NCBI GenBank assembly: GCA_050951765.1
Contig: JBMNJR010000008.1
Span: 54,795 to 118,794 of the forward strand
Direction of reading: 5' to 3'
From: a bacterium
Lineage (GTDB): Bacteria; Bacillota; DTU030; JBMNJR01
DNA: 64,000 bases
Every line of letters begins with the position of its first letter. The first letter of the stretch is position 1. Under the pieces are notes generated by a model. It was not told the origin of the DNA, ran no database searches, and saw only the letters and a list, made by a program, of their open reading frames with translations. Below, one piece after another: positions 183 to 45,166 of the stretch. A program made the position numbers and the translations under genes.

Positions 183-283
183 TGATAATATCATCCTTTC
201 ATTGTAGCAGAGGGTGACATTTTCTCAGAACAATTTCAGGGTGACATTATCACAGAACAAACACACACCAGTGGCTCAACCTC

Positions 284-312
284 TTGACATTTCCCCATAT
301 TTCCGCTATACT
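284..312 (+). promoter_or_regulatory. Sigma-70-like promoter for tRNA-Leu
   Basis: TTGACA, 17 nt spacer, TATACT, about 15 nt upstream of the tRNA 5' end. Confidence 0.4.
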
Positions 313-326
313 AAAATCTGCAACGT

Positions 327-413
327 GCCGAAGTGGTGGAACTGGCAGACGCGCTGGATTCAAAATCCAGTGGGGGCAACTCCGTGTGGGTTCGACTCCC
401 ACCTTCGGCACCA
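327..413 (+). tRNA. tRNA-Leu (anticodon CAA)
   Basis: 7 bp acceptor stem GCCGAAG/CTTCGGC, anticodon loop TTCAAAA, long variable arm, T-loop TTCGACT, encoded CCA end. Confidence 0.85.
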
Positions 414-755
414 AACCCAATATACTCAAGAGTTCCGAGGTTTTCACATGATGAAGACTTCGGAACTTTTATTTTTGCGCAATGCGCTGGATACTAAGGT
501 TCTCACCGCACTGGATTATTAGAACTAAACAAAATCAAATCCCCTCAAATGATAAGCCTCGTTCAATCAACAGAATTACGCTTAACTTTTTTAACTAAAG
601 CAGGAGTATGATAATAAATGCCGAAAAAGAAAATAATAGGACAAATGTATAATGATAGTAATATAATATTTTTTGCAGAACTTTTTTGTTGTATTCTTAA
701 CTACAATGTTCATCAATTGTACCTTTATTAATAAATTAAAAAGGGAGGTAAATTT

Positions 756-4356: not shown

Positions 4357-4910
4357 TCCCCCATTGTTTTCAAACCTACAATAATAATAACAAAAGAGAA
4401 CCCATCCATAAAGGACGGAGCTCTGTTTCTTAATTATACTTCCACATTGGAAAGAGAAATCCCTTTTAGTAAGTGGTTACAGGGTAAACATAACTCAGCA
4501 TATGACTATGATCACTTATTTTGCAAAAAAATAAAGCCCCGCCCGGACTCAATTGTTTGTTTTATTTGGTAAAGCAGGCCTGCCTTAGATAAGCAGGCGC
4601 TGCCAGCAAGGCAAACTGATAGCCCAACTGCAAATACATACTTTGTCAGCGGTTTAATCCCGCAAGGGGCTAAATGGTTCAAGCTAAACTATGCTCCTAT
4701 TGAGGCGGTTCCCAGGGAACGTACTCCCGTTCTAGCCTTGTGACAATCGCAGTCCCAGCCAGCAGAATAATGCGCTTGGCTTCTGGGGCACTGAAGCTGA
4801 CTAAGAAAAGCCAATCAAAACCACGTCATCTTAATACAGAGCGCATACCCGTAAATAATACCTATGTATGATCGATCATAGATTTGTATTACCATGCATT
4901 TCCTTTTGCC

Positions 4911-7498: not shown

Positions 7499-7535
7499 CC
7501 TTAAATTATTTATTTCTTTTTGCAGACTCTGAACC

Positions 7536-7590
7536 TGGCTAGCCTAATTTTACCGCCGGCTCTGCCACCGTGGCGGCCCTTCCAAGAAGT
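7536..7590. repeat. Dispersed intergenic repeat, family R2 copy
   Basis: GCTAGCCTAATTTTACCGCCGGCTCTGCCACCGTGGCGGCCC; near-identical to 35551..35600 and reverse-complementary to 25264..25308. Confidence 0.6.
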
Positions 7591-7702
7591 TTAAGTGTTA
7601 GCCGCAACCCCTTTTGTACCACAAAGTAGACATTCCTTTATCCTCGGAGAAATGTTGCAGCTAATTTTCGTCCTTATGCCGGTACCGTATATCGGCATGG
7701 TG

Positions 7703-8878
7703 CTACTCCTTAACCTCAATAAACCGTCCGCTCTGGGTCCGCACAAGATAAGGTTTGCCATTACGGGTATAGACCCTGGGCAAGCGCCGGCTAAGGCAAC
7801 AAAGTACTTCACCAAGAGTTACGCCTAAAAGGGGATTTACCTCCTCCGGTGATACTGAGGCTTCACCTTGCTTTCCAAAGATGACAACCTCCTCACCAAC
7901 CTTGACTTCCAAATCCCCGGCATCAACCATACACATATCGGCACAGGTGGCAACAATTGTTTTCCTTTGCCCCTTAAGCAACACCGGACATTTGCCGGCT
8001 AACCGTTTCGACAGCCCGTCACTGGAACCTAAAGGCAAGGTGATTATTCTTGTATCTTGGGCAGGGCGATAGAATGCGTCATAGCCGACACCATCCCCTG
8101 CTGCTACCGGAATAGCATGCACAGCTATGGTCTTAAGTTGTAACGCCGGTTTGAGAGTTAGATTTTTCTCTGCCTCCGGGTAAGGGTAGTAGCCGTAAAA
8201 AATGCGGCCTGTTCGTACTGCATTAAAATGAGTGCTGGGTAAATCATATGTTGCGGCACTATTGGCAGCATGTCGCAGCGGAATATCAATCCCTGCCGCC
8301 GCCAATTCCTCAAGGACTTGATTAAATACCCTCAATTGCCTTTCCGTGTCAGTCTTATCCTTCTGCGCAGCCTTGGCAAAATGAGTGAAGATCCCTTCCA
8401 ACTCAATACCAGCTAAACCTTTCACAAACCGGGCAAACTCAACTGCATCCTCCGGCTGCACACCAATGCGATTTAAACCAGTATTTACCTTCATATGCAC
8501 CTTAACCACTTTCCCTTTTTCTTGCGCCACAGCCGCCAATTCTTTCGCTATTTGCCGGGTATACAGGGCAAGAGTTAAATCATGATCAACGGCTGCTGCC
8601 AATTGGCAAGGAGCAGTATAACCCAAAACCAAAATAGGAGCAGTGATCCCGTGATCACGCAACTCCAAAGCCTCATCCACCATCGCCACAGCAAGACGGT
8701 CTGCGCCGTTGGCCAATGCTACCCGCCCCACTTCCACAGCGCCATGGCCGTAGCCGTCACCTTTTACCACTACAATAAACTGAACCTTCTCCCCTATATG
8801 ACGCCTAATCTCCCGTACATTATTACCAATGGCATCAGTATCGATTTCAACCCATGCCGGTCGCCAAAATCTATCCAT
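7703..8878 (-). CDS. alr: Alanine racemase
   Basis: MDRFWRPAWVEIDTDAIGNN...VVVKGDGYGHG (PLP-lysine region); start set at internal ATG 8878 with RBS GGAAAGGGG; ORF track extends to 8992. Confidence 0.85.
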   Translation of the reverse strand: MDRFWRPAWVEIDTDAIGNNVREIRRHIGEKVQFIVVVKGDGYGHGAVEVGRVALANGADRLAVAMVDEALELRDHGITAPILVLGYTAPCQLAAAVDHDLTLALYTRQIAKELAAVAQEKGKVVKVHMKVNTGLNRIGVQPEDAVEFARFVKGLAGIELEGIFTHFAKAAQKDKTDTERQLRVFNQVLEELAAAGIDIPLRHAANSAATYDLPSTHFNAVRTGRIFYGYYPYPEAEKNLTLKPALQLKTIAVHAIPVAAGDGVGYDAFYRPAQDTRIITLPLGSSDGLSKRLAGKCPVLLKGQRKTIVATCADMCMVDAGDLEVKVGEEVVIFGKQGEASVSPEEVNPLLGVTLGEVLCCLSRRLPRVYTRNGKPYLVRTQSGRFIEVKE

Positions 8879-9156
8879 TGTAGTCACCCCTTTCCGCATA
8901 TTGCCGGCATAAACCAACAGTTCCCTTTCAGTTCGCCTCATCACCTTGATAAATTGACACCTTACCTGGCAGAAAAGAACTTCGCCGTACAAAAAAATTC
9001 AGCATATAATTAAAATAATATCCTCATTAAATATTCAATGATTTTTAATATTTCCCTCCCCCCAGCAGCAAAAGTTCTGCAAAATTTTAAAAGAATTGTC
9101 CAGATGCAGAAAAAAGGGTATCAATAAACCACCCTTTTATATTACTATGCATGGAT

Positions 9157-11334: not shown

Positions 11335-12159
11335 TTATTTCACTATCGCATTTCCTACTAACAATGGGGCAAAAATAATGTCCCCACATCTCCCCCCGAT
11401 AAAACCTCTATCCACCACTTCCGGTTTATCACCGTTGGCAATAACCAAAGGAATGCCTGCGGCGTTGACTATCTTCGCTGCCAAGACTTTGGTTCCCATT
11501 CCTCCAACACCAAGATTACCGCCTTCGCTGGATGCCAATGCTTCAATATCCGGCGTTATTTCTGTCACTAAAGAAATTCGCTGGGCATCCTCTGCAACGC
11601 GGGGATCTGCAGTATACAGACCATCAATATCAGATAAAATTATCAAAAGATCAGCTTCTGCCAAAACAGCTACGTACGCAGAAAGGGAATCATTATCGCC
11701 AAATTCAATTTCATCCACTGCTACGGTATCGTTTTCATTGACAATGGGGATAACCCTATAATCTAATAAGGTATTAAATGTATTCCGGGCATTAATATAT
11801 CGCTTCCCATTATCAACATCAGCTTTGGTCAGTAATATTTGAGCTACTACATAACCATACTCTCCAAATAATTTCTCATAAACATGCATAAGGACTCCTT
11901 GCCCAATGGCAGCCATTGCCTGTTTTTCTTTGGTACTACGGGGTCGTCCAGTAAGCCCAATTTTACTAGTCCCGACCACAATTGCGCCGGAACTGACTAA
12001 AATTACCTCTTTATTCTGATTGCATAAATCAGCCAATTGCCGTACCAGGTGCTCCATTCTATTTAGATTCAGTTTCCCGTTTGCATAGGTTAATGTAGAG
12101 GTACCTACTTTCACAACTATTCGCCGTGCATGCTTCAATTCTTGCCTCCCGTTTGCCAA
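11335..12159 (-). CDS. proB: Glutamate 5-kinase (short form without PUA domain)
   Basis: VVKVGTSTLT, LVSSGAI, INENDTVA, FGDNDSLSA, ILSDIDGLYTADPR, GTGGMGTK motifs. Confidence 0.85.
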   Translation of the reverse strand: MANGRQELKHARRIVVKVGTSTLTYANGKLNLNRMEHLVRQLADLCNQNKEVILVSSGAIVVGTSKIGLTGRPRSTKEKQAMAAIGQGVLMHVYEKLFGEYGYVVAQILLTKADVDNGKRYINARNTFNTLLDYRVIPIVNENDTVAVDEIEFGDNDSLSAYVAVLAEADLLIILSDIDGLYTADPRVAEDAQRISLVTEITPDIEALASSEGGNLGVGGMGTKVLAAKIVNAAGIPLVIANGDKPEVVDRGFIGGRCGDIIFAPLLVGNAIVK

Positions 12160-14227: not shown

Positions 14228-14451
14228 GATGCTCCCCTACTCTCCCTTCTCATCCACAGTATGCAATTTCACAGTAACCGTTCAGATCAATATTTAAAAT
14301 TTCAGCACGCAGGATATCCTCACCTTTATACACTAGTAGTTTATCTTTCCTTCGACTACCTTTTACCGGAATCCTTTTCGCAGTACAATAATTTTTTCAT
14401 TGTCACCTGTTAGATGTTTCCACGATAACATCTACTCTAAAAATACGACCC

Positions 14452-14547
14452 GGCTCGACAAGGAACCGGAGAGAGCGAAGCCGGAAGTGATGGACAATTA
14501 ATTTTCATTCCTCTGCTGGTGTCGAGAATCGGCATGGGCGTCTACTC
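14452..14547. repeat. Dispersed repeat, family R1 partial copy (right half)
   Basis: About 96 bp near-identical to 35432..35532 and 54603..54710, ending ...CGGCATGGGCGTCTACTC; on the minus strand begins 6 nt after the dnaE stop. Confidence 0.7.
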
Positions 14548-24700: not shown

Positions 24701-24970
24701 TTAGAGTACCTGCATATTGTAGTCAATTATCTCCACCTCGCCCAAGTCTGCAATAAAATTAATCACAGCCTGGATGTTTTGATACGCATGACCACTTTCG
24801 TTGCTGACACAAGCAATACCCAATGTCACCCTCCGCCAGGTATCTTGATCATCTATTTCCGCCAGAGATACGTTAAACCGTGCTCGTGCCCGCTGGAGCA
24901 GACTCTTTAGTACCCGCCGTTTGTCCTTTAAGGAGTTTGCTCCGGGAATATGTAGGATTACAATCCCCAT
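24701..24970 (-). CDS. DUF503 family protein
   Basis: About 90 aa from internal Met (MGIVILHIPGANSLKDKRRV); ORF track extends to 25018. Confidence 0.65.
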   Translation of the reverse strand: MGIVILHIPGANSLKDKRRVLKSLLQRARARFNVSLAEIDDQDTWRRVTLGIACVSNESGHAYQNIQAVINFIADLGEVEIIDYNMQVL

Positions 24971-25099
24971 GCCGATAACCAAATTTTTCACCTCAATTAT
25001 GATTCGATTCTTTCTCAACTAAGTGAAATCCTGCCTTATATGGTATAATTTTACTTCCACTTCCTAAAAAAACCCTTAGCAGTAAAACGCGTTATAGCT

Positions 25100-25310
25100 A
25101 GGATAGCCGTTTTGCATAGCTGGCGACTGCTTTTTGAGGTTAGAAGTTGGAAGTTAGAAAAGAACAATATAATATTAGGTTCTATGTATAAAAAAAGAGA
25201 AATAATGAACTCTTTCGCATTACTGTCTAACTTCGAATCTCTAACCTCTAACTTTTTGGAGAGGGTGGTCACGGTCGCCGGAGCCAGCGACAAAATTAGG
25301 CTAGCCCCGG
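25100..25310. repeat. Family R2 repeat locus: inverted duplicate modules
   Basis: 22 bp module CTAACTTC(C/G)AA...CTAACCTC present inverted at 25136..25157 and direct at 25227..25248; followed by the AAAATTAGGCTAGCC module at 25264..25308. Confidence 0.6.
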
Positions 25311-25341
25311 ATAAAGTGTTTCAGAATAGAAACAAATTCCC

Positions 25342-25875
25342 TCAAAGCCCTGCCAAATGCATCACAATCCCCAAAAGACCTCCGCTTACAATCATCAGGA
25401 TAGGATTAACCTTAGTAAAGGTGACAACCAAAAAAGTAATAACGGCAACCAGTGCTGCAAGTACATCTTTAATTGCAGAGGGTATAAGATAAATTCCTGC
25501 AGATAAGATAAGTATCGGCAACACGGAACAAATACCGTGCAAGGCCTCACGCACAACTACATGGTCTCTGTGCTTGCCAAAAATTTTTGTAAACATAAAT
25601 ACAATCAATAATGTCGGTGTAAAAACCGCGGTTGTCGCTATTATGGCTCCACCGAGTCCGGCAATTTTGTATCCCACAAAAGTGGCTGCATTAATTGCAA
25701 TCGGCCCCGGGGTCATCTGTGAGATCGTTATGATCTCCAAAAATTCCTCAACCTCCAGCCACCCTCTTTGAATTACTATCTCTTGCTGAATTAAAGGCAA
25801 CATGGCATAACCGCCGCCAAAGGCAAATAGACCAACCTTAAAAAACGCCCACCCCAAAGACAACGAAATTAGCAT
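25342..25875 (-). CDS. Chromate transporter (ChrA half-size subunit)
   Basis: 177 aa membrane protein with ChrA-like motif FGGGYAMLPLIQ. Confidence 0.75.
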   Translation of the reverse strand: MLISLSLGWAFFKVGLFAFGGGYAMLPLIQQEIVIQRGWLEVEEFLEIITISQMTPGPIAINAATFVGYKIAGLGGAIIATTAVFTPTLLIVFMFTKIFGKHRDHVVVREALHGICSVLPILILSAGIYLIPSAIKDVLAALVAVITFLVVTFTKVNPILMIVSGGLLGIVMHLAGL

Positions 25876-35162: not shown

Positions 35163-35284
35163 AATATTTGCTCTGATTTTATCCTATCATAAAATTCTTT
35201 CCAGCTTTGTTTTTTCCTCTTTCTGATAGCATTTGCACCTAAACGGCTAATTCTGGGCTCGACAAAAAAACCCGGCTCCTTATA

Positions 35285-35532
35285 GAGTAGACGCCCATGC
35301 CGGTATACATCACCTGCGGAAGGCCTGTCCAAAGCCGAAGGCGACGGGCACTAAAGCTTAGGTTCCTTGTCCGGCATGTACATGAGCCCATGGCACCTCT
35401 ATACTTCCGGCAACTGAAAGTATAGAGGCATGGCTCGACTCGACAAGGTACCGGAGAGAGCGAAGCCGGAAGTGGTGAACAATTAATTTTCATTCCTCTG
35501 CTGGTGCCGAGAATCGGCATGGGCGTCTACTC
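35285..35532. mobile_element. MITE-like element, repeat family R1, complete copy
   Basis: 248 bp bounded by perfect 18 bp terminal inverted repeats GAGTAGACGCCCATGCCG (35285..35302) and CGGCATGGGCGTCTACTC (35515..35532); internal hairpin CTCTATAC...GTATAGAG; no ORF. Confidence 0.7.
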
Positions 35533-35550
35533 TGAAAACATTTTGTCCGG

Positions 35551-35600
35551 GGCTTGCCTAATTTTGCCGCTGGCTCCGGCGACCGTGGCCGCCCTCCAAC
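35551..35600. repeat. Dispersed intergenic repeat, family R2 copy
   Basis: GCCTAATTTTGCCGCTGGCTCCGGCGACCGTGGCCGCCC, homologous to 7536..7590. Confidence 0.6.
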
Positions 35601-35740
35601 TGAATAACTACTATAAAAGGCTGGGCGGCCATGCTCAGTCGCCGGCTATGTCAAACAGGTTGATCGTAAAAACAATGTCAACAGTGCTTGGCTTGCACGT
35701 ATTTTCATCTCTGTGCCGGTGGTGAAACTGACATGAAAAA

Positions 35741-36523: not shown

Positions 36524-37975
36524 AATTATCCCTCCCCAATTCTAAGAACTGCGCAATTTGTTGCGCGATCCTTGCTACAACCTGTTCTGTTTCCGCTTCA
36601 ACATATACGCGCAGCACATCTTCAGTCCCGGAAGGACGGACAAGACACTATGCACCATCAGAAAGTACCATTTTTACACCATCCAACCGCTGTATTTGTA
36701 TAAGCTTACGACCTGCCAATTGGTCCGGAGGATTGGTAGTTAATACTGCTAATACCCTCGCTTTTGCTGCAGCTGTACAATAGAAGTCCACTCTTTTGCT
36801 ATACAACTGTCCATACTTAGCTCTGAGCATTGCCATTAGTTCCGGTAAAGTAATATCATATGCAGACAAAATACCGATCAACAATAATCCGGCAACAATG
36901 CCATCTTTTTCAGGTATTTCCCGATTAACCCCTAACCCTCCGCTCTCTTCTGCTCCTAATACTGCCCCTTCGTTAAGCATTGCCTGTGCTAAATATTTAA
37001 ATCCCACCGGTGTTTCAATCATCTTAATCCCTGCTTTTTCTGCCACCCGATCGATCATATGGGTAGTTGCCACTGTCCGAGCAAAAGCAGGATGTTCTGC
37101 ACTGTGATCTGCCATATAATCGGCATAAACGGTAAAAACCTGATTGGGGCTAATATAATTACCATCTGGACCAATAAACCCAAAACGATCCCCATCCCCG
37201 TCCAGCGCAATACCTAAATCCGCTCGGCTCTCCCGCACAGCCGCAGCTAAGTTACCGAGGTTTTCTTCCTTGGGCTCAGGGGATAATTGCCCGCAAAAAG
37301 GTTGTTCGCTGTGAATAGTGAGCACATTATGACCAAGATTGCACAAAATATGCTCCATGTAACCTGCACCAGCGCCATACATAGGATCTACCATAACCTT
37401 TAATGCACAATTCCCATTGATACCCTCCATCAGTTTGCATAGATATCGCCGGTAAATCTCAGCAGAGGAAATTTTTCTGATCAGCTTCGCACCTATTTTG
37501 CAGTGAATCCAGTATTGGATGGAACTTCCGGCGGTATCAAAGCCTCAATGGCACCGGTTATCGCATTTGGCGCGGGACCGGCAAAATCGGGAATATATTT
37601 AATCCCATTATAGTAATAAGGATTATGGCTGGCCGTAATCATAATACCGCCGGCCAGGTGCAAGTCCTTAATTGTACAAGCTATGGCAGGAGTTGGTACC
37701 GGTTGTTCGTTTAGATAAACAGGGATACCGTTGGCTGCTAAAACTTGCGCCGCAACACTGGCAAAAACATCTGACAGCAAGCGCGTATCATAGCCAATCA
37801 CAACACCACGGGTATAATCCTGTCCATTCTTTATTAGATAGGCGGCAATCCCTTGTACGACCCGAGCCAAATTTTCAGGAGTAAACTCTTGACCAATAAT
37901 TGCCCGCCACCCATCGGTGCCAAATCTGATTAAGCCCACCCTTCGCTCCCTCCACGCTTTTTTCAAGTATCCCAA
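36516..37975 (-). pseudogene. Phosphoglucomutase/phosphomannomutase, disrupted
   Basis: Active-site TASHNP in 37493..37975; frameshift near 37440..37520 (A-run GCAAAATAGG); domains II-III in 36648..37430; in-frame TAG at 36648..36650 where Trp is expected (DGA*CLVRPSGTE); frame then continues 43 codons to TAA. Confidence 0.6.
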
Positions 37976-38209: not shown

Positions 38210-38240
38210 TAAATAAAAAATTGAACTATAGCGCATTATA

Positions 38241-38330
38241 TACTAGGGGAGCTGGAAACGCCAGCTGAGATAAAGACGTAATTAGTCTTTGACCCTTGAC
38301 CTGATCTGGATAATGCCAGCGTAGGGAAGT
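38241..38330 (+). promoter_or_regulatory. TPP (THI-box) riboswitch aptamer
   Basis: CTAGGGGAGC...GCTGAGA...ACCCTTGACCTGATCTGGATAATGCCAGCGTAGGGAAG matches conserved THI element segments. Confidence 0.85.
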
Positions 38331-38350
38331 AACTTTTGTTTTTGTTGTAA

Positions 38351-38386
38351 AGCATAAATCCTTATCCTGGGATTTATGCTTTTTTA
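38351..38386 (+). terminator. Riboswitch expression-platform terminator
   Basis: 11 bp stem AGCATAAATCC/GGATTTATGCT followed by TTTTT, just upstream of the thiW start. Confidence 0.65.
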
Positions 38387-43451: not shown

Positions 43452-43524
43452 CTAAATTAATATAAATGGTCGTGTCAAATAGTTGTAGGACATTTACTTT
43501 TATCGTCCCTTTTGGTTTTTGTCA

Positions 43525-44934
43525 CTAGAGCCTGATATTACCGTCTTGAAGGCCACGTAAACAGGGAAACATCGGAACCACTTTGCCCCTCTTTAATATG
43601 GGTATATTGGCGAACTTTTCATTAGATACTTTTTCGAATGACCGGTTCATTTTCCGCATCATGCTCTGGTTAAATCTATATCTTAAACTTGTACCCTTAG
43701 ATTTGGTATCACGAAAATGTTTTAGTTCTATCTTCCCACCACTTGCCATAAACGCTCGTAGTTCCGCCATCTTTCGCAGCCCTTCTTGGCTCCAGCCCAT
43801 GGGGCGGCTGCTTATTCTGCTCGAGAGAATATGGCTCACATGACCTCTGTACAGCTGCTGCCGCATTCTTCATGGTTATATATTACTATTGCTTCCCAGT
43901 TGTTGGTTATATATCTATGGAATTTGCGTATTTTCTCCTTCTCAGAGACACTGCCAGCCTTTTGGTATAGGCCTTTGATGATTGCTCTAAAGGCCTCTTT
44001 ATCAGAGTTTGAAAGTGCTGTGTAAATAGCAGTTCTTGCTTCCGGGTGTTGGCTCGTAGCAGTCATGATTGCTTTATTCAGGTGGTAACGATCTAATACT
44101 AACTTAGTGTTGGGAAGCCATTTTAGGCCTTCTTTTATCCAGGCCGCGCCATCACCATGTAGATAGATGCGTTCTATCTTCTCGGCTTCTGCCGCCTCTA
44201 ACCATAGGTCTTCATTGTCTTTACCACTACTGCTTATGTAATGGGTATTGATGCAGCTGCCGCGCTTTCTTTGCCTTTCTATCCCTTCGTGTATGCTTAT
44301 CAGCGGTACTATGCTGTTTTTACCGTCTTGCATGGATGCATGGTCTTCATCTGCATTTATATATAATACCGATGCCTGGCGTTTTTCGGTGGGCAGATCT
44401 ATCTTTAATTTTTTTACCTTGCGTAGCTTATTCATCACTGTTTGCCTACTTACTTCGCCCTTTGTAACGTATTTACTGCTTTTACCGTACGAGTTTTCAC
44501 TAGCACATTCTATGAGCCTTTGTGTAACAGCGGTGGATACTCGTTCGTATTTCTCTATCCCTACTGCTTTATCCAATAAATAGACATGCTCATCGTTCCT
44601 TTGATCATGAAAATAGGGTCCTGCTGAATACTATCTGTCCAAACTGTGTATAAAGCTCTCGCTTATCTTTCCTACGCTCAATTACAATTCCTTCTTGTCT
44701 TCTACTTGCTTTATCATCAACTATGGATTTGTCCAGCTCCTCAAGGTACGCTTCTACAATCTCTACTATGAAATTATCGGCCTTTTCTTTAAGATTTACT
44801 TCCATTTCTGCTATCGTTTTAGGTCCATCACCTTCAATGAAAAATTCTGCTACCCCCTTTATGAAATTTTCACAGATTTGTAGTAGAATAGTATCAAACA
44901 AGAGATCTCCTCCTTTGGTAATTGTTGTGGGCAA
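43525..44934 (-). pseudogene. ISLre2-type (UPF0236) transposase, fragmented into three frames
   Basis: Three collinear ORFs (44605..44934, 43836..44576, 43525..43866) that appear to be consecutive parts of one transposase. Confidence 0.55.
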
Positions 44935-45049
44935 ACTCTATTTTACCAAAAAGGACGATCTCTTGTTTCTTTTTTCCTACAATTATTTTACACTAGGAAT
45001 ATAAATAAACCTATACGCATAAATTAAGAACCCTTAAGACAGCAAAAGC

Positions 45050-45091: not shown

Positions 45092-45166
45092 GGGCCTGTA
45101 GCTCAGTGGGAGAGCGCCTGACTCGCATTCAGGAGGTCGAGGGTTCGACTCCCTTCAGGTCCACCA
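45092..45166 (+). tRNA. tRNA-Ala (anticodon CGC)
   Basis: Cloverleaf with G3:U70 alanine identity pair, anticodon loop CTCGCAT, T-loop TTCGACT, encoded CCA. Confidence 0.85.

What the first reader, a model, noticed from the sequence alone, without database searches (positions are those of the whole stretch)
25100..25310. Second repeat family (R2) present as an inverted pair and at three other intergenic sites
The module CTAACTTC(C/G)AAC(T/A)TCTAACCTC plus AGCAGTCGCCAGCT plus AAAATT(A)GGCTAGCC occurs inverted at 25100..25157 and direct at 25227..25308, about 70 bp apart, forming a large potential stem-loop. Related copies lie at 7536..7590, 35551..35600 (directly next to the MITE) and 54228..54292. 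Copies occur in both orientations relative to flanking genes, which argues for a mobile or recombinogenic repeat rather than a strand-specific regulatory RNA.
Basis: seen in the sequence. Interest (0 to 1): 0.5.

Follow-up and report, generated by a model that had tools for sequence, protein, structure and literature searches.

The report
Modular palindromic intergenic repeat family
The flagged sequence is a real, non-coding repeat family, found so far only in this organism, built from GC-rich arms (often in inverted pairs) and a short 7-base tandem array; it resembles the small dispersed repeats (BOX, REPIN, MITE) known in other bacteria and is of modest interest.

Summary
The repeat is real and far above chance. 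It sits at all the stated places, and I found three further arms: 54141-54219, 35623-35671, and one outside the window (L026:737-824).

It has two kinds of module:
- X is a G-poor tandem array of 3-4 heptamers (TCTAACY).
- Y is a GC-rich arm of 35-80 nt in three homologous variants (Y1, Y2 and a shorter Y').

There are five loci in about 83 kb, all intergenic. Three are inverted arm pairs with tails pointing outward; two are single arms.

The pairs at 25 kb and 35 kb fold into long hairpins about equally well on both strands. The 54 kb locus does not fold better than shuffled sequence. Single arms show no conserved fold or covariation.

There is no Rfam, tRNA, protein, plasmid or phage match. 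The Y arm is absent from representative genomes, metagenome contigs and viral contigs. The host is an isolated spore-forming Bacillota metagenome-assembled genome (MAG).

No insertion duplication, parent insertion sequence or presence/absence polymorphism was found, but the available strains are at least 99.2% identical.

Best reading: a new family of BOX/REPIN/MITE-type dispersed palindromic repeats, acting at the DNA level, with mobility inferred rather than shown. Interest is low to moderate.

The parts
25101..25133 (-). Y' arm (short variant: AGCAGTCGCCAGCT-N5-AAAAC-GGCTATCC). It is the outer arm of the 25 kb doublet and lies about 80 nt upstream of the DUF503 gene.
   Evidence: nhmmer Y' profile, E = 5e-9. 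Pattern match. Pairs with the Y1 arm in the plus-strand fold.
25136..25163 (-). X module: heptamer array TCTTTTCTAACTTCCAACTTCTAACCTC.
   Evidence: 28 of 28 identical to 54222-54249. TRF period 7, 3.0 copies at 25139-25159.
25164..25225 (.). AT-rich spacer that forms the loop of the 25 kb palindrome. It is unique to this locus.
   Evidence: Sequence. Loop in both folds. No other copy found by BLAST.
25226..25252 (+). X module: heptamer array TCTAACTTCGAATCTCTAACCTCTAAC.
   Evidence: TRF period 7, 3.9 copies. 85% complementary to 25133-25158.
25258..25325 (+). Y1 arm (GGAGAGGGTGGTCACGGTCGCCGGAGCCAGCGACAAAATTAGGCTAGCC) plus the tail CCCCGGATAAAGTGTTTCAGA. It ends about 17 nt from the chrA stop codon.
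   Evidence: 90% identical over 61 nt to 35536-35596. nhmmer E = 2e-16.
54141..54219 (-). Y2 arm (GGAGAGGATGGCACGGCGGTGGAGTCCGGCGGGAAATAGCTTAACCAACAAGCTG...).
   Evidence: nhmmer Y profile E = 4e-9 and Y2 profile E = 4e-21. About 74% identical to L026:737-824.
54222..54258 (+). X module: heptamer array with no G in 41 nt.
   Evidence: TRF period 7, 3.9 copies at 54226-54252. Base counts.
54259..54297 (+). Y' arm (AGAGCAGTCGCCAGCTTTAGAAAATTGGCTAGCC).
   Evidence: nhmmer E = 2e-10. Pattern match.
35534..35597 (-). Y1 arm plus tail, directly abutting the right end of the R1 element (35533).
   Evidence: nhmmer E = 5e-16. Sequence.
35623..35671 (+). Y' arm, an intermediate form that keeps GGGCGGCCATG.
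   Evidence: nhmmer E = 3e-10. Forms a stem of about 20 bp with the Y1 arm on either strand.
7522..7584 (-). Solo Y1 arm plus a shortened tail, ending 24 nt upstream of the creatininase start codon.
   Evidence: nhmmer E = 3e-14. Sequence.
7585..7613 (-). Degenerate X-like module (GCTAACACTTAAACTTCTT).
   Evidence: nhmmer X profile, E = 5e-4.

Best explanation
R2 is a non-coding dispersed repeat family, so far seen only in this lineage, that acts at the DNA level. [quoted passage not shown]

The basic unit is a GC-rich arm of about 35-80 nt (50-70% GC against 44% for the window). Its conserved core is GGAGRGG..CCACGG..GGAG(Y)CC(R)GCGG..AAAT..GGCTAGCC. It exists as three homologous variants: Y1, Y2 and a shorter Y', which lacks GGAGCC among other changes. 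The arm is optionally preceded by a 3-4-unit heptamer array (TCTAACY).

Complete elements are two arms in inverted orientation with tails outward, around a variable centre. Single arms are probably decayed or truncated elements.

Inferred mechanism (not shown): the family spread through intergenic DNA by a trans-acting transposase or recombinase that recognises the arms. The heptamer array changes length by replication slippage. The present copies are old and fixed. They are passively co-transcribed with neighbouring operons, where the doublets can form hairpins in either strand.
For: **Shown**
- The family is real and specific.
- All 5 loci in about 83 kb are intergenic, while only 17% of the window is intergenic.
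- All arms are homologous: 53-89% pairwise identity, with E2 an intermediate between Y1 and Y'.
- Three of five loci are inverted doublets with tails outward.
- Hairpin stability is symmetric between strands.
- Module combinations differ between loci: Y1+Y', Y2+Y', Y1 alone and Y2 alone, with 0, 1 or 2 X arrays. Croucher et al. describe the same kind of variation for BOX-type elements (PMC3049150).
- X is a period-7 array.
- R2 has no coding signal. The only gene called over it has no relative among 1.84 billion representative proteins and no Pfam hit on record.
- There is no Rfam or tRNA match.
- At 54 kb the element lies between the cobO stop codon and a strong terminator at 54104-54085, so it sits in a 3' UTR.
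- Independent assemblies break inside the repeat (L014 and L015).
Against: - There is no direct sign of transposition. I recognised no target-site duplication. No presence/absence or sequence polymorphism exists at any of the four window loci in other contigs of the organism.
- None of the three insertion sequences in the 83 kb has similar ends. No tyrosine (RAYT-type) transposase gene is in the window.
- Only 8 arms are available, so module boundaries and copy number (extrapolated at roughly one locus per 15-20 kb) are uncertain.
- The 54 kb locus does not fold better than shuffles, so a hairpin is not a universal property.
- The arms are GC-rich, unlike typical MITEs.
Confidence: 0.6

Rival explanations
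1. R2 doublets are selected RNA-level elements. They would be 3' UTR or intercistronic hairpins that stabilise upstream mRNA or attenuate read-through, as proposed for REP and BOX elements, rather than selfish DNA.
For: - All loci lie between co-directional genes, so they are probably transcribed.
- The 54 kb copy lies upstream of the operon terminator.
- The 25 kb and 35 kb doublets form very stable hairpins.
- No canonical terminator separates chrA from DUF503.
Against: - Two of five loci are single arms with no stable conserved fold.
- The 54 kb locus is not more stable than shuffles.
- The hairpins are, if anything, slightly more stable on the antisense strand (against 14, 16 against 73).
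- No U-tract follows the stems on the sense strand.
- This reading describes a possible effect of the copies and does not explain how the family arose.
Confidence: 0.15
2. R2 arms are binding sites for a DNA-binding protein, such as a nucleoid-associated or global regulatory protein or a recombinase. They would be maintained by selection upstream of genes.
For: - The arms conserve sequence rather than structure.
- In all five loci a forward-oriented arm ends 24-130 nt upstream of the next gene start or its terminator.
- The arm contains the palindrome GGCTAGCC. All 3 window occurrences of that 8-mer are in R2.
Against: - The downstream genes are unrelated: creatininase, DUF503, MoxR, lgt and polA.
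- The arm is 35-80 nt, much longer than an operator.
- Variants differ by indels inside the core.
- For inverted doublets, a forward arm next to the downstream gene is automatic, so only two loci carry any information on orientation.
- No promoter-like consensus falls inside the arms.
Confidence: 0.1
3. R2 is a family of small RNA genes or a cis-regulatory leader.
For: The location is intergenic and some copies lie just upstream of start codons. One weak promoter-like site lies in the 25 kb spacer.
Against: - There is no Rfam hit at E <= 10.
- There is no consensus structure (about -5 kcal/mol, negligible covariation).
- Orientation varies, module content varies, and the adjacent genes are unrelated.
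- The promoter-like site is at the chance level.
Confidence: 0.07

Closest known systems
BOX-type elements of streptococci (S. pneumoniae boxA-boxB(n)-boxC; S. suis families with alternative terminal modules boxA/C or boxE/F around shared boxB), PMC3049150
   Same: - Modular and intergenic.
- Terminal modules are partly complementary to each other, so the element folds as a stem-loop.
- An internal tandemly repeated module is variable in number or absent.
- Different terminal-module types combine with the same internal module.
- Incomplete forms (single modules) are common.
- No known transposase.
   Different: - No sequence relation was detected, although BOX sequences were not compared directly.
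- The internal unit here is 7 nt rather than about 45 nt.
- At 25 kb the internal module itself occurs as an inverted pair around a unique spacer.
- The host is an unrelated, uncultured Bacillota lineage.
REP sequences and REPINs (REP doublets forming hairpins) mobilised by RAYT transposases, PMC3116915
   Same: - GC-rich extragenic repeats that occur as inverted doublets separated by a spacer, and as singlets.
- The doublets form hairpins in single-stranded DNA or RNA on either strand.
- Several subfamilies coexist in one genome.
   Different: - The arms are 35-80 nt, against about 20-40 nt for REP.
- The arms are not themselves clear palindromes.
- No conserved GTAG tetranucleotide at the arm end.
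- No RAYT gene in the 83 kb examined.
- REPIN systems are described mainly in Proteobacteria, with Nostoc punctiforme also named in that paper's abstract.
Bacterial MITEs (for example Correia/NEMIS and Nezha; named from my own knowledge and from PMC3049150)
   Same: Size of 120-210 bp, terminal inverted repeats, a highly base-paired fold, and an intergenic location.
   Different: - No target-site duplication recognised.
- No parent insertion sequence with matching ends.
- The arms are GC-rich rather than AT-rich.
- Internal sequence is not conserved between copies.
Short tandemly repeated repetitive (STRR) heptamer arrays of cyanobacteria (my own knowledge: Mazel et al. 1990; Elhai et al. 2008), and the (TCTAACY)n arrays seen here in Mu-like phage contigs
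   Same: - The X module is a period-7 intergenic array.
- Arrays of the same unit, often as inverted pairs around a spacer of about 80 nt, occur in IMG/VR contigs L017-L023.
   Different: - X has only 3-4 imperfect units.
- X is always attached to a Y arm.
- The viral contigs have no Y arm and a different base composition (52-57% GC).
- Common origin is unproven.

Membership tests
REP / REPIN-RAYT | Extragenic repeats organised as inverted doublets that form hairpins | tested here: met
   Three of five loci are inverted arm pairs. The 25 kb and 35 kb pairs fold with z = -4.5/-4.0 and -2.7/-2.6. All loci are intergenic.
REP / REPIN-RAYT | Each REP is a short (about 20-40 nt) imperfect palindrome with a conserved GTAG at its 5' end | tested here: not met
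   The arms are 35-80 nt. The consensus fold of single arms is only about -5 kcal/mol, with broken pairs. None of the eight arm cores contains GTAG or CTAC at a conserved position (sequences).
REP / REPIN-RAYT | A cognate single-copy RAYT (Y1 transposase) gene flanked by the repeats | not testable with these tools
   No such gene is in the window or flanks (Pfam tables). The rest of the genome could not be reached.
MITE | Terminal inverted repeats and small size (under 500 bp) | tested here: met
   The doublets span 25101-25325 (about 225 bp), 54141-54297 (157 bp) and 35534-35671 (138 bp), with homologous outward-facing arms.
MITE | Target-site duplication flanking the element | tested here: inconclusive
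   Inspection of the flanks of all loci showed no shared direct repeat. The element ends are not sharply defined with so few copies.
MITE | A parent insertion sequence with matching terminal repeats in the same genome | tested here: not met
   The ends of the UPF0236-type insertion sequence, the 447-aa rve-type one and the IS21-type one do not resemble R2 ends. Only 83 kb was searched.
MITE | Presence/absence polymorphism between strains (evidence of movement) | tested here: not met
   The 7.5, 25, 35 and 54 kb loci are identical in all other contigs of the organism. Those strains are 99.2-100% identical, so the test is weak.
BOX-type element | Composite of distinct terminal modules around a variable number of tandem internal modules, with incomplete forms | tested here: met
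   The architectures are Y2-X-Y' (54 kb), Y1-X/spacer/X-Y' (25 kb), Y1-Y' (35 kb), Y1-X(degenerate) (7.5 kb) and Y2 alone (L026). The definition is from PMC3049150.
BOX-type element | Sequence homology to streptococcal boxA, boxB or boxC | not tested
   No BOX reference sequences were available in the tools. There was no relevant hit in plasmids or phages or in Rfam.
   Nothing was found at R2 with gathering thresholds or at E <= 10. ARAGORN finds only tRNA-Leu at 327 and tRNA-Ala at 45092.

The most novel reading that the evidence does not exclude
R2 could be the cargo of a REPIN/BOX-like system in a deep-branching, uncultured spore-forming Bacillota lineage. In this reading, a single-copy domesticated transposase or recombinase elsewhere in the genome recognises the GC-rich arm. 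Arm subfamilies (Y1, Y2, Y') are exchanged around a slippage-prone heptamer array. The same (TCTAACY)n arrays seen in Mu-like phage contigs would point to a shared mechanism that generates inverted heptamer arrays.
Probability: 0.15. Interest if true: 0.5.

Novelty: new member of a known kind. Interest (0 to 1): 0.25.

Why it matters
Small dispersed palindromic repeats are well documented in Proteobacteria, streptococci and cyanobacteria, but, to my knowledge, hardly at all in uncultured anaerobic Bacillota.

This family would be useful in three ways:
- as a marker for strain typing;
- as an explanation for the assembly breaks seen in this MAG;
- as an entry point to look for the enzyme that spreads it.

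It does not by itself open a new biological question. Its value is mainly for annotation: it prevents spurious gene calls such as the 126-aa ORF at 25112-25492.

Tried and rejected
1. **Census by exact pattern of the Y arm.** The scan of representative genomes gave 9 hits in unrelated GC-rich organisms. The scan of metagenome contigs gave 2 chance hits. The scan of viral contigs gave 0.
2. **Six-frame peptide query to find spurious ORFs over other copies.** No hits. This may be a technical failure caused by the X spacers in the query. A representative search with the real 78-aa read-through peptide found only itself.
3. **Presence/absence comparison in relatives.** The nearest ChrA is 51% identical and the nearest alanine racemases are 56-64% identical. 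Their contigs (16 kb in all) carry no R2 module.
4. **Strain polymorphism.** None at any locus.
5. **Intrinsic terminator idea.** No stem plus U-tract on the sense strand at R2.
6. **Sigma-54 or sigma-70 promoter inside the arm.** Only one copy (54 kb) has TGGCACG, and there is no consistent hexamer pair.
7. **Integron attC, coding remnant, tRNA or rRNA fragment.** All rejected. The flanking genes are housekeeping genes, substitutions between copies show no synonymous bias on inspection, and there are no Rfam or ARAGORN hits.
8. **Small R1 fragment at 7672-7707.** It is suggestive by eye but not significant by BLAST.
9. **Plasmid and phage BLAST.** Only a chance 61-nt hit in a Klebsiella plasmid.

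Full report
**Observation**

The region 25100-25310 lies in the 323-nt gap between two minus-strand genes. One is a chromate-transporter gene (25342-25875). The other is a DUF503 gene (24701-25018).

It contains an inverted repeat: arms 25133-25158 and 25226-25251, 26 nt, 85% complementary, 67 nt apart. The whole 251-nt stretch folds into one long hairpin on either strand. The minus strand gives -68.1 kcal/mol (z = -4.5). The plus strand gives -75.7 kcal/mol (z = -4.0). None of 200 shuffles folds as well.

- 25261-25321 and 35536-35596 share 61 nt at 90%.
- 25136-25163 and 54222-54249 are 28 of 28 identical.
- 7537-7562 and 25281-25306 share 26 nt at 88%.

**Anatomy**

The family is modular.

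Module X is a period-7 tandem array of 3 to 3.9 copies with unit TCTAACC/TTCTAAC. Its three intact copies are the only period-7 arrays in the window (TRF). X is almost free of G: 0-2 G in 35-41 nt.

Module Y is a GC-rich arm (50-70% GC against 44% for the window) in three variants:

| Variant | Sequence | Copies |
|---|---|---|
| Y1 | GGAGRGGGYGGYCACGGTCGCCGGAGCCAGCGRCAAAATTAGGCWAGCC, plus a tail CCCCGGAYAAARTGTTTYCAGA in two copies | 25258-25325 (+), 35534-35597 (-), 7522-7584 (-) |
| Y2 | ...GGCACGGCGGTGGAGTCCGGCGG.AAAT.GCTTAACCAACAAGCTG | 54141-54219 (-), L026:737-824 (-) |
| Y' (short) | AGTCGCCRGCT-N5-AAA..GGCTAGCC | 25101-25133 (-), 54259-54297 (+), 35623-35671 (+) |

The variants are homologous, with 53-89% pairwise identity. 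The 35 kb Y' copy keeps the GGGCGGCCATG of Y1 and so bridges Y1 and Y'. Y' lacks the GGAGCC of Y1.

With them, the loci read as follows. Tails point outward in every doublet.

| Locus | Architecture |
|---|---|
| 25 kb | Y' and X, inverted, then spacer, then X and Y1 |
| 54 kb | Y2 inverted, then X, then Y' |
| 35 kb | Y1 inverted, then a 25-nt spacer, then Y' |
| 7.5 kb | single Y1 with a degenerate X |
| L026 (a JGI contig of the same organism; this stretch has no counterpart in the window) | single Y2 |

That makes five loci in about 83 kb (window plus 9.2 kb plus 9.9 kb of flanks). All are intergenic, although only 17% of the window is intergenic.

**What it is not**

- Rfam finds only a TPP riboswitch and two tRNAs in the window, and nothing at R2 even at E <= 10.
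- The only gene ever called over R2 is a 126-aa ORF at 25112-25492 that overlaps chrA on the opposite strand. It has no Pfam hit on record, and a search with its R2-encoded 78 residues found no relative among 1.84 billion representative proteins.
- Single arms have no convincing common fold on either strand: about -5 kcal/mol, with broken pairs and negligible covariation.
- The 54 kb locus folds no better than shuffled sequence (z = -0.8 and -1.1).
- The 25 kb and 35 kb hairpins are equally good on both strands.
- The genes downstream are unrelated: creatininase, DUF503, MoxR ATPase, lgt and polA.
- The sense strand has no stem plus U-tract at R2.
- At 54 kb a strong terminator (54104-54085, minus strand) lies between R2 and lgt. 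R2 there is therefore part of the cobO 3' UTR.

Together these points argue against a strand-specific RNA, a riboswitch-like leader or an intrinsic terminator. They favour an element defined at the DNA level.

**Distribution**

The Y-arm pattern is absent, apart from chance hits in unrelated GC-rich taxa, from three collections:
- one genome per GTDB species;
- the JGI metagenome contig collection;
- IMG/VR viral contigs.

BLAST against plasmids and phages gives nothing relevant.

The organism is an isolated lineage. NCBI names its protein only 'MAG... [bacterium]'. The neighbouring genes include sporulation proteins YtrH and YtrI, and SepF. The nearest ChrA is 51% identical. The nearest alanine racemases are 56-64% identical, from unnamed Logan contigs. 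Named relatives (Bacillota MAGs, Koleobacter, Moorellaceae, Pelotomaculum) are about 45% identical.

The 16 kb available from the three closest relatives holds no R2 module.

Contigs of the same organism from at least ten other samples are 99.2-100% identical to the window. They show no difference at the 7.5, 25, 35 or 54 kb loci. Two independent assemblies break inside the 25 kb palindrome (L014 and L015).

**The heptamer module elsewhere**

The X pattern finds seven IMG/VR contigs (L017-L023, 52-57% GC). There, (TCTAACY)n arrays of 3-6 units occupy many intergenic gaps, often as inverted pairs around a spacer of about 80 nt. That is the same layout as the 25 kb locus.

One of them (L020) is a Mu-like phage: it encodes a transposase, a DNA transposition protein and a tail fibre. 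None carries a Y arm.

X is therefore an instance of a wider phenomenon, heptanucleotide intergenic arrays. Cyanobacterial STRRs are the textbook case (my own knowledge). It is not a signature unique to R2. Whether the shared unit reflects common origin or convergence is open.

**Relation to R1**

- R1 is complete at 35284-35533. Partial copies lie at 14451-14547 and 54608-54710.
- R1 abuts R2 at 35 kb and lies 320 nt from it at 54 kb, on the other side. It occurs without R2 at 14.5 kb.
- R2 occurs without R1 at 25 kb and in L026.
- BLAST finds no similarity between the two families.

They are not one composite element. Their co-occurrence in two of 27 long intergenic gaps is only marginally above expectation (about 0.05 by my hypergeometric estimate from the counts).

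**Mechanism**

Shown:
- a family of homologous GC-rich arms, frequently in inverted pairs;
- a modular make-up with a slippage-type array;
- confinement to intergenic DNA;
- no strand preference in folding;
- no coding or known-RNA identity.

Inferred:
- The family was spread by a trans-acting transposase or recombinase that recognises the arm.
- The doublet was the unit that moved, and single arms are decay products, as argued for REPINs (PMC3116915).
- The copies are now old: arms differ by 11-47%. They are fixed, and are transcribed passively with their neighbours.

Not shown: any transposition footprint, parent element or polymorphism. The three insertion sequences within reach have unrelated ends. 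No Y1-type transposase gene lies in the 83 kb.

**Comparison with known systems**

The closest functional analogue is the BOX-type element of streptococci. It has terminal modules that pair with each other, an internal tandem module that may be absent or multiple, alternative terminal modules around the same internal module (as in S. suis), frequent incomplete forms, and no known transposase (PMC3049150).

REPINs share the doublet and singlet organisation and the GC-rich extragenic hairpins. R2 fails two REP criteria: it has no short palindromic unit and no conserved GTAG. The RAYT criterion could not be tested.

R2 meets the size and terminal-inverted-repeat criteria for a MITE. It does not meet the criteria for a target-site duplication, a parent insertion sequence or polymorphism, though these tests were weak.

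I therefore file R2 as a new family of a known kind, not as a member of BOX, REP or any named MITE family.

**Verdict**

- Novelty: new member of a known kind.
- Interest: 0.25.

Noticed in passing
window 35284-35533; 14451-14547; 54608-54710: The R1 family has one complete 250-bp copy with terminal inverted repeats (GAGTAGACGCCCATGCCG; 19 nt perfect, 37 nt at 78%) and two 97-102-nt right-half copies. The outer ends of the half copies lie 3-6 nt from the stop codons of the DNA polymerase III alpha gene (14553) and cobO (54713). A terminator-like hairpin plus T-run lies at the inner edge of one half copy (14470-14449, minus strand). The GTAG-containing end followed by a small hairpin looks REP-like. 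There is no Rfam hit.
   Followed up: partly
L017-L023 (IMG/VR contigs), e.g. L020:2388-2421, 4617-4654, 9045-9086, 11980-12010: Heptamer arrays (TCTAACY)n fill many intergenic gaps of Mu-like phage contigs (transposase and transposition protein in L020). They often occur as inverted pairs around a spacer of about 80 nt. Other heptamer units occur in the same contigs.
   Followed up: partly
window 56685-59671; L026:7766-9109; L036:12006-13732: There are nested insertion sequences. An IS21-type element (about 57205-59278, IstA 520 aa) interrupts the transposase gene of another element, whose intact 447-aa copy is in L026. The JGI contig carries 826 nt more than the window at this place, so strains or assemblies differ here.
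   Followed up: partly
window 43468-44997: A UPF0236-type insertion sequence is broken into three ORFs. It is 96% identical to an intact copy at L026:6165-7711 and lies immediately next to tRNA-Ala (45092-45166).
   Followed up: no
window 54085-54104 (minus strand): A strong intrinsic terminator (GGAAGCCCCGAGGGGTTTCC plus T7) lies inside the long TTG-started lgt ORF. The real lgt start is therefore 54013, as called in the JGI contig.
   Followed up: yes
window 36648-37975: Phosphoglucomutase is split over two or more ORFs (domain I in 37493-37975; domains II-III in 36648-37430). It is also split in an independent contig (L045). This suggests a pseudogene or a recurrent frameshift.
   Followed up: no
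window 38235-38344: A TPP riboswitch (78 bits) with its terminator (38349-38382) lies upstream of a thiW-thiD-type operon.
   Followed up: no
window 242-541; L026:9163-9454; L027:1-134: The region around tRNA-Leu (327-413) is only 87-92% identical between strains. In the JGI contig it is preceded by insertion sequences, so the window's left flank is a strain-variable junction.
   Followed up: no
window 7672-7707: A hairpin ATGCCGGTACCGTATATCGGCAT followed by GGTGCTACTCC overlaps the alr stop codon and resembles the R1 end (ATCGGCATGGGCGTCTACTC). It is not significant by BLAST.
   Followed up: partly
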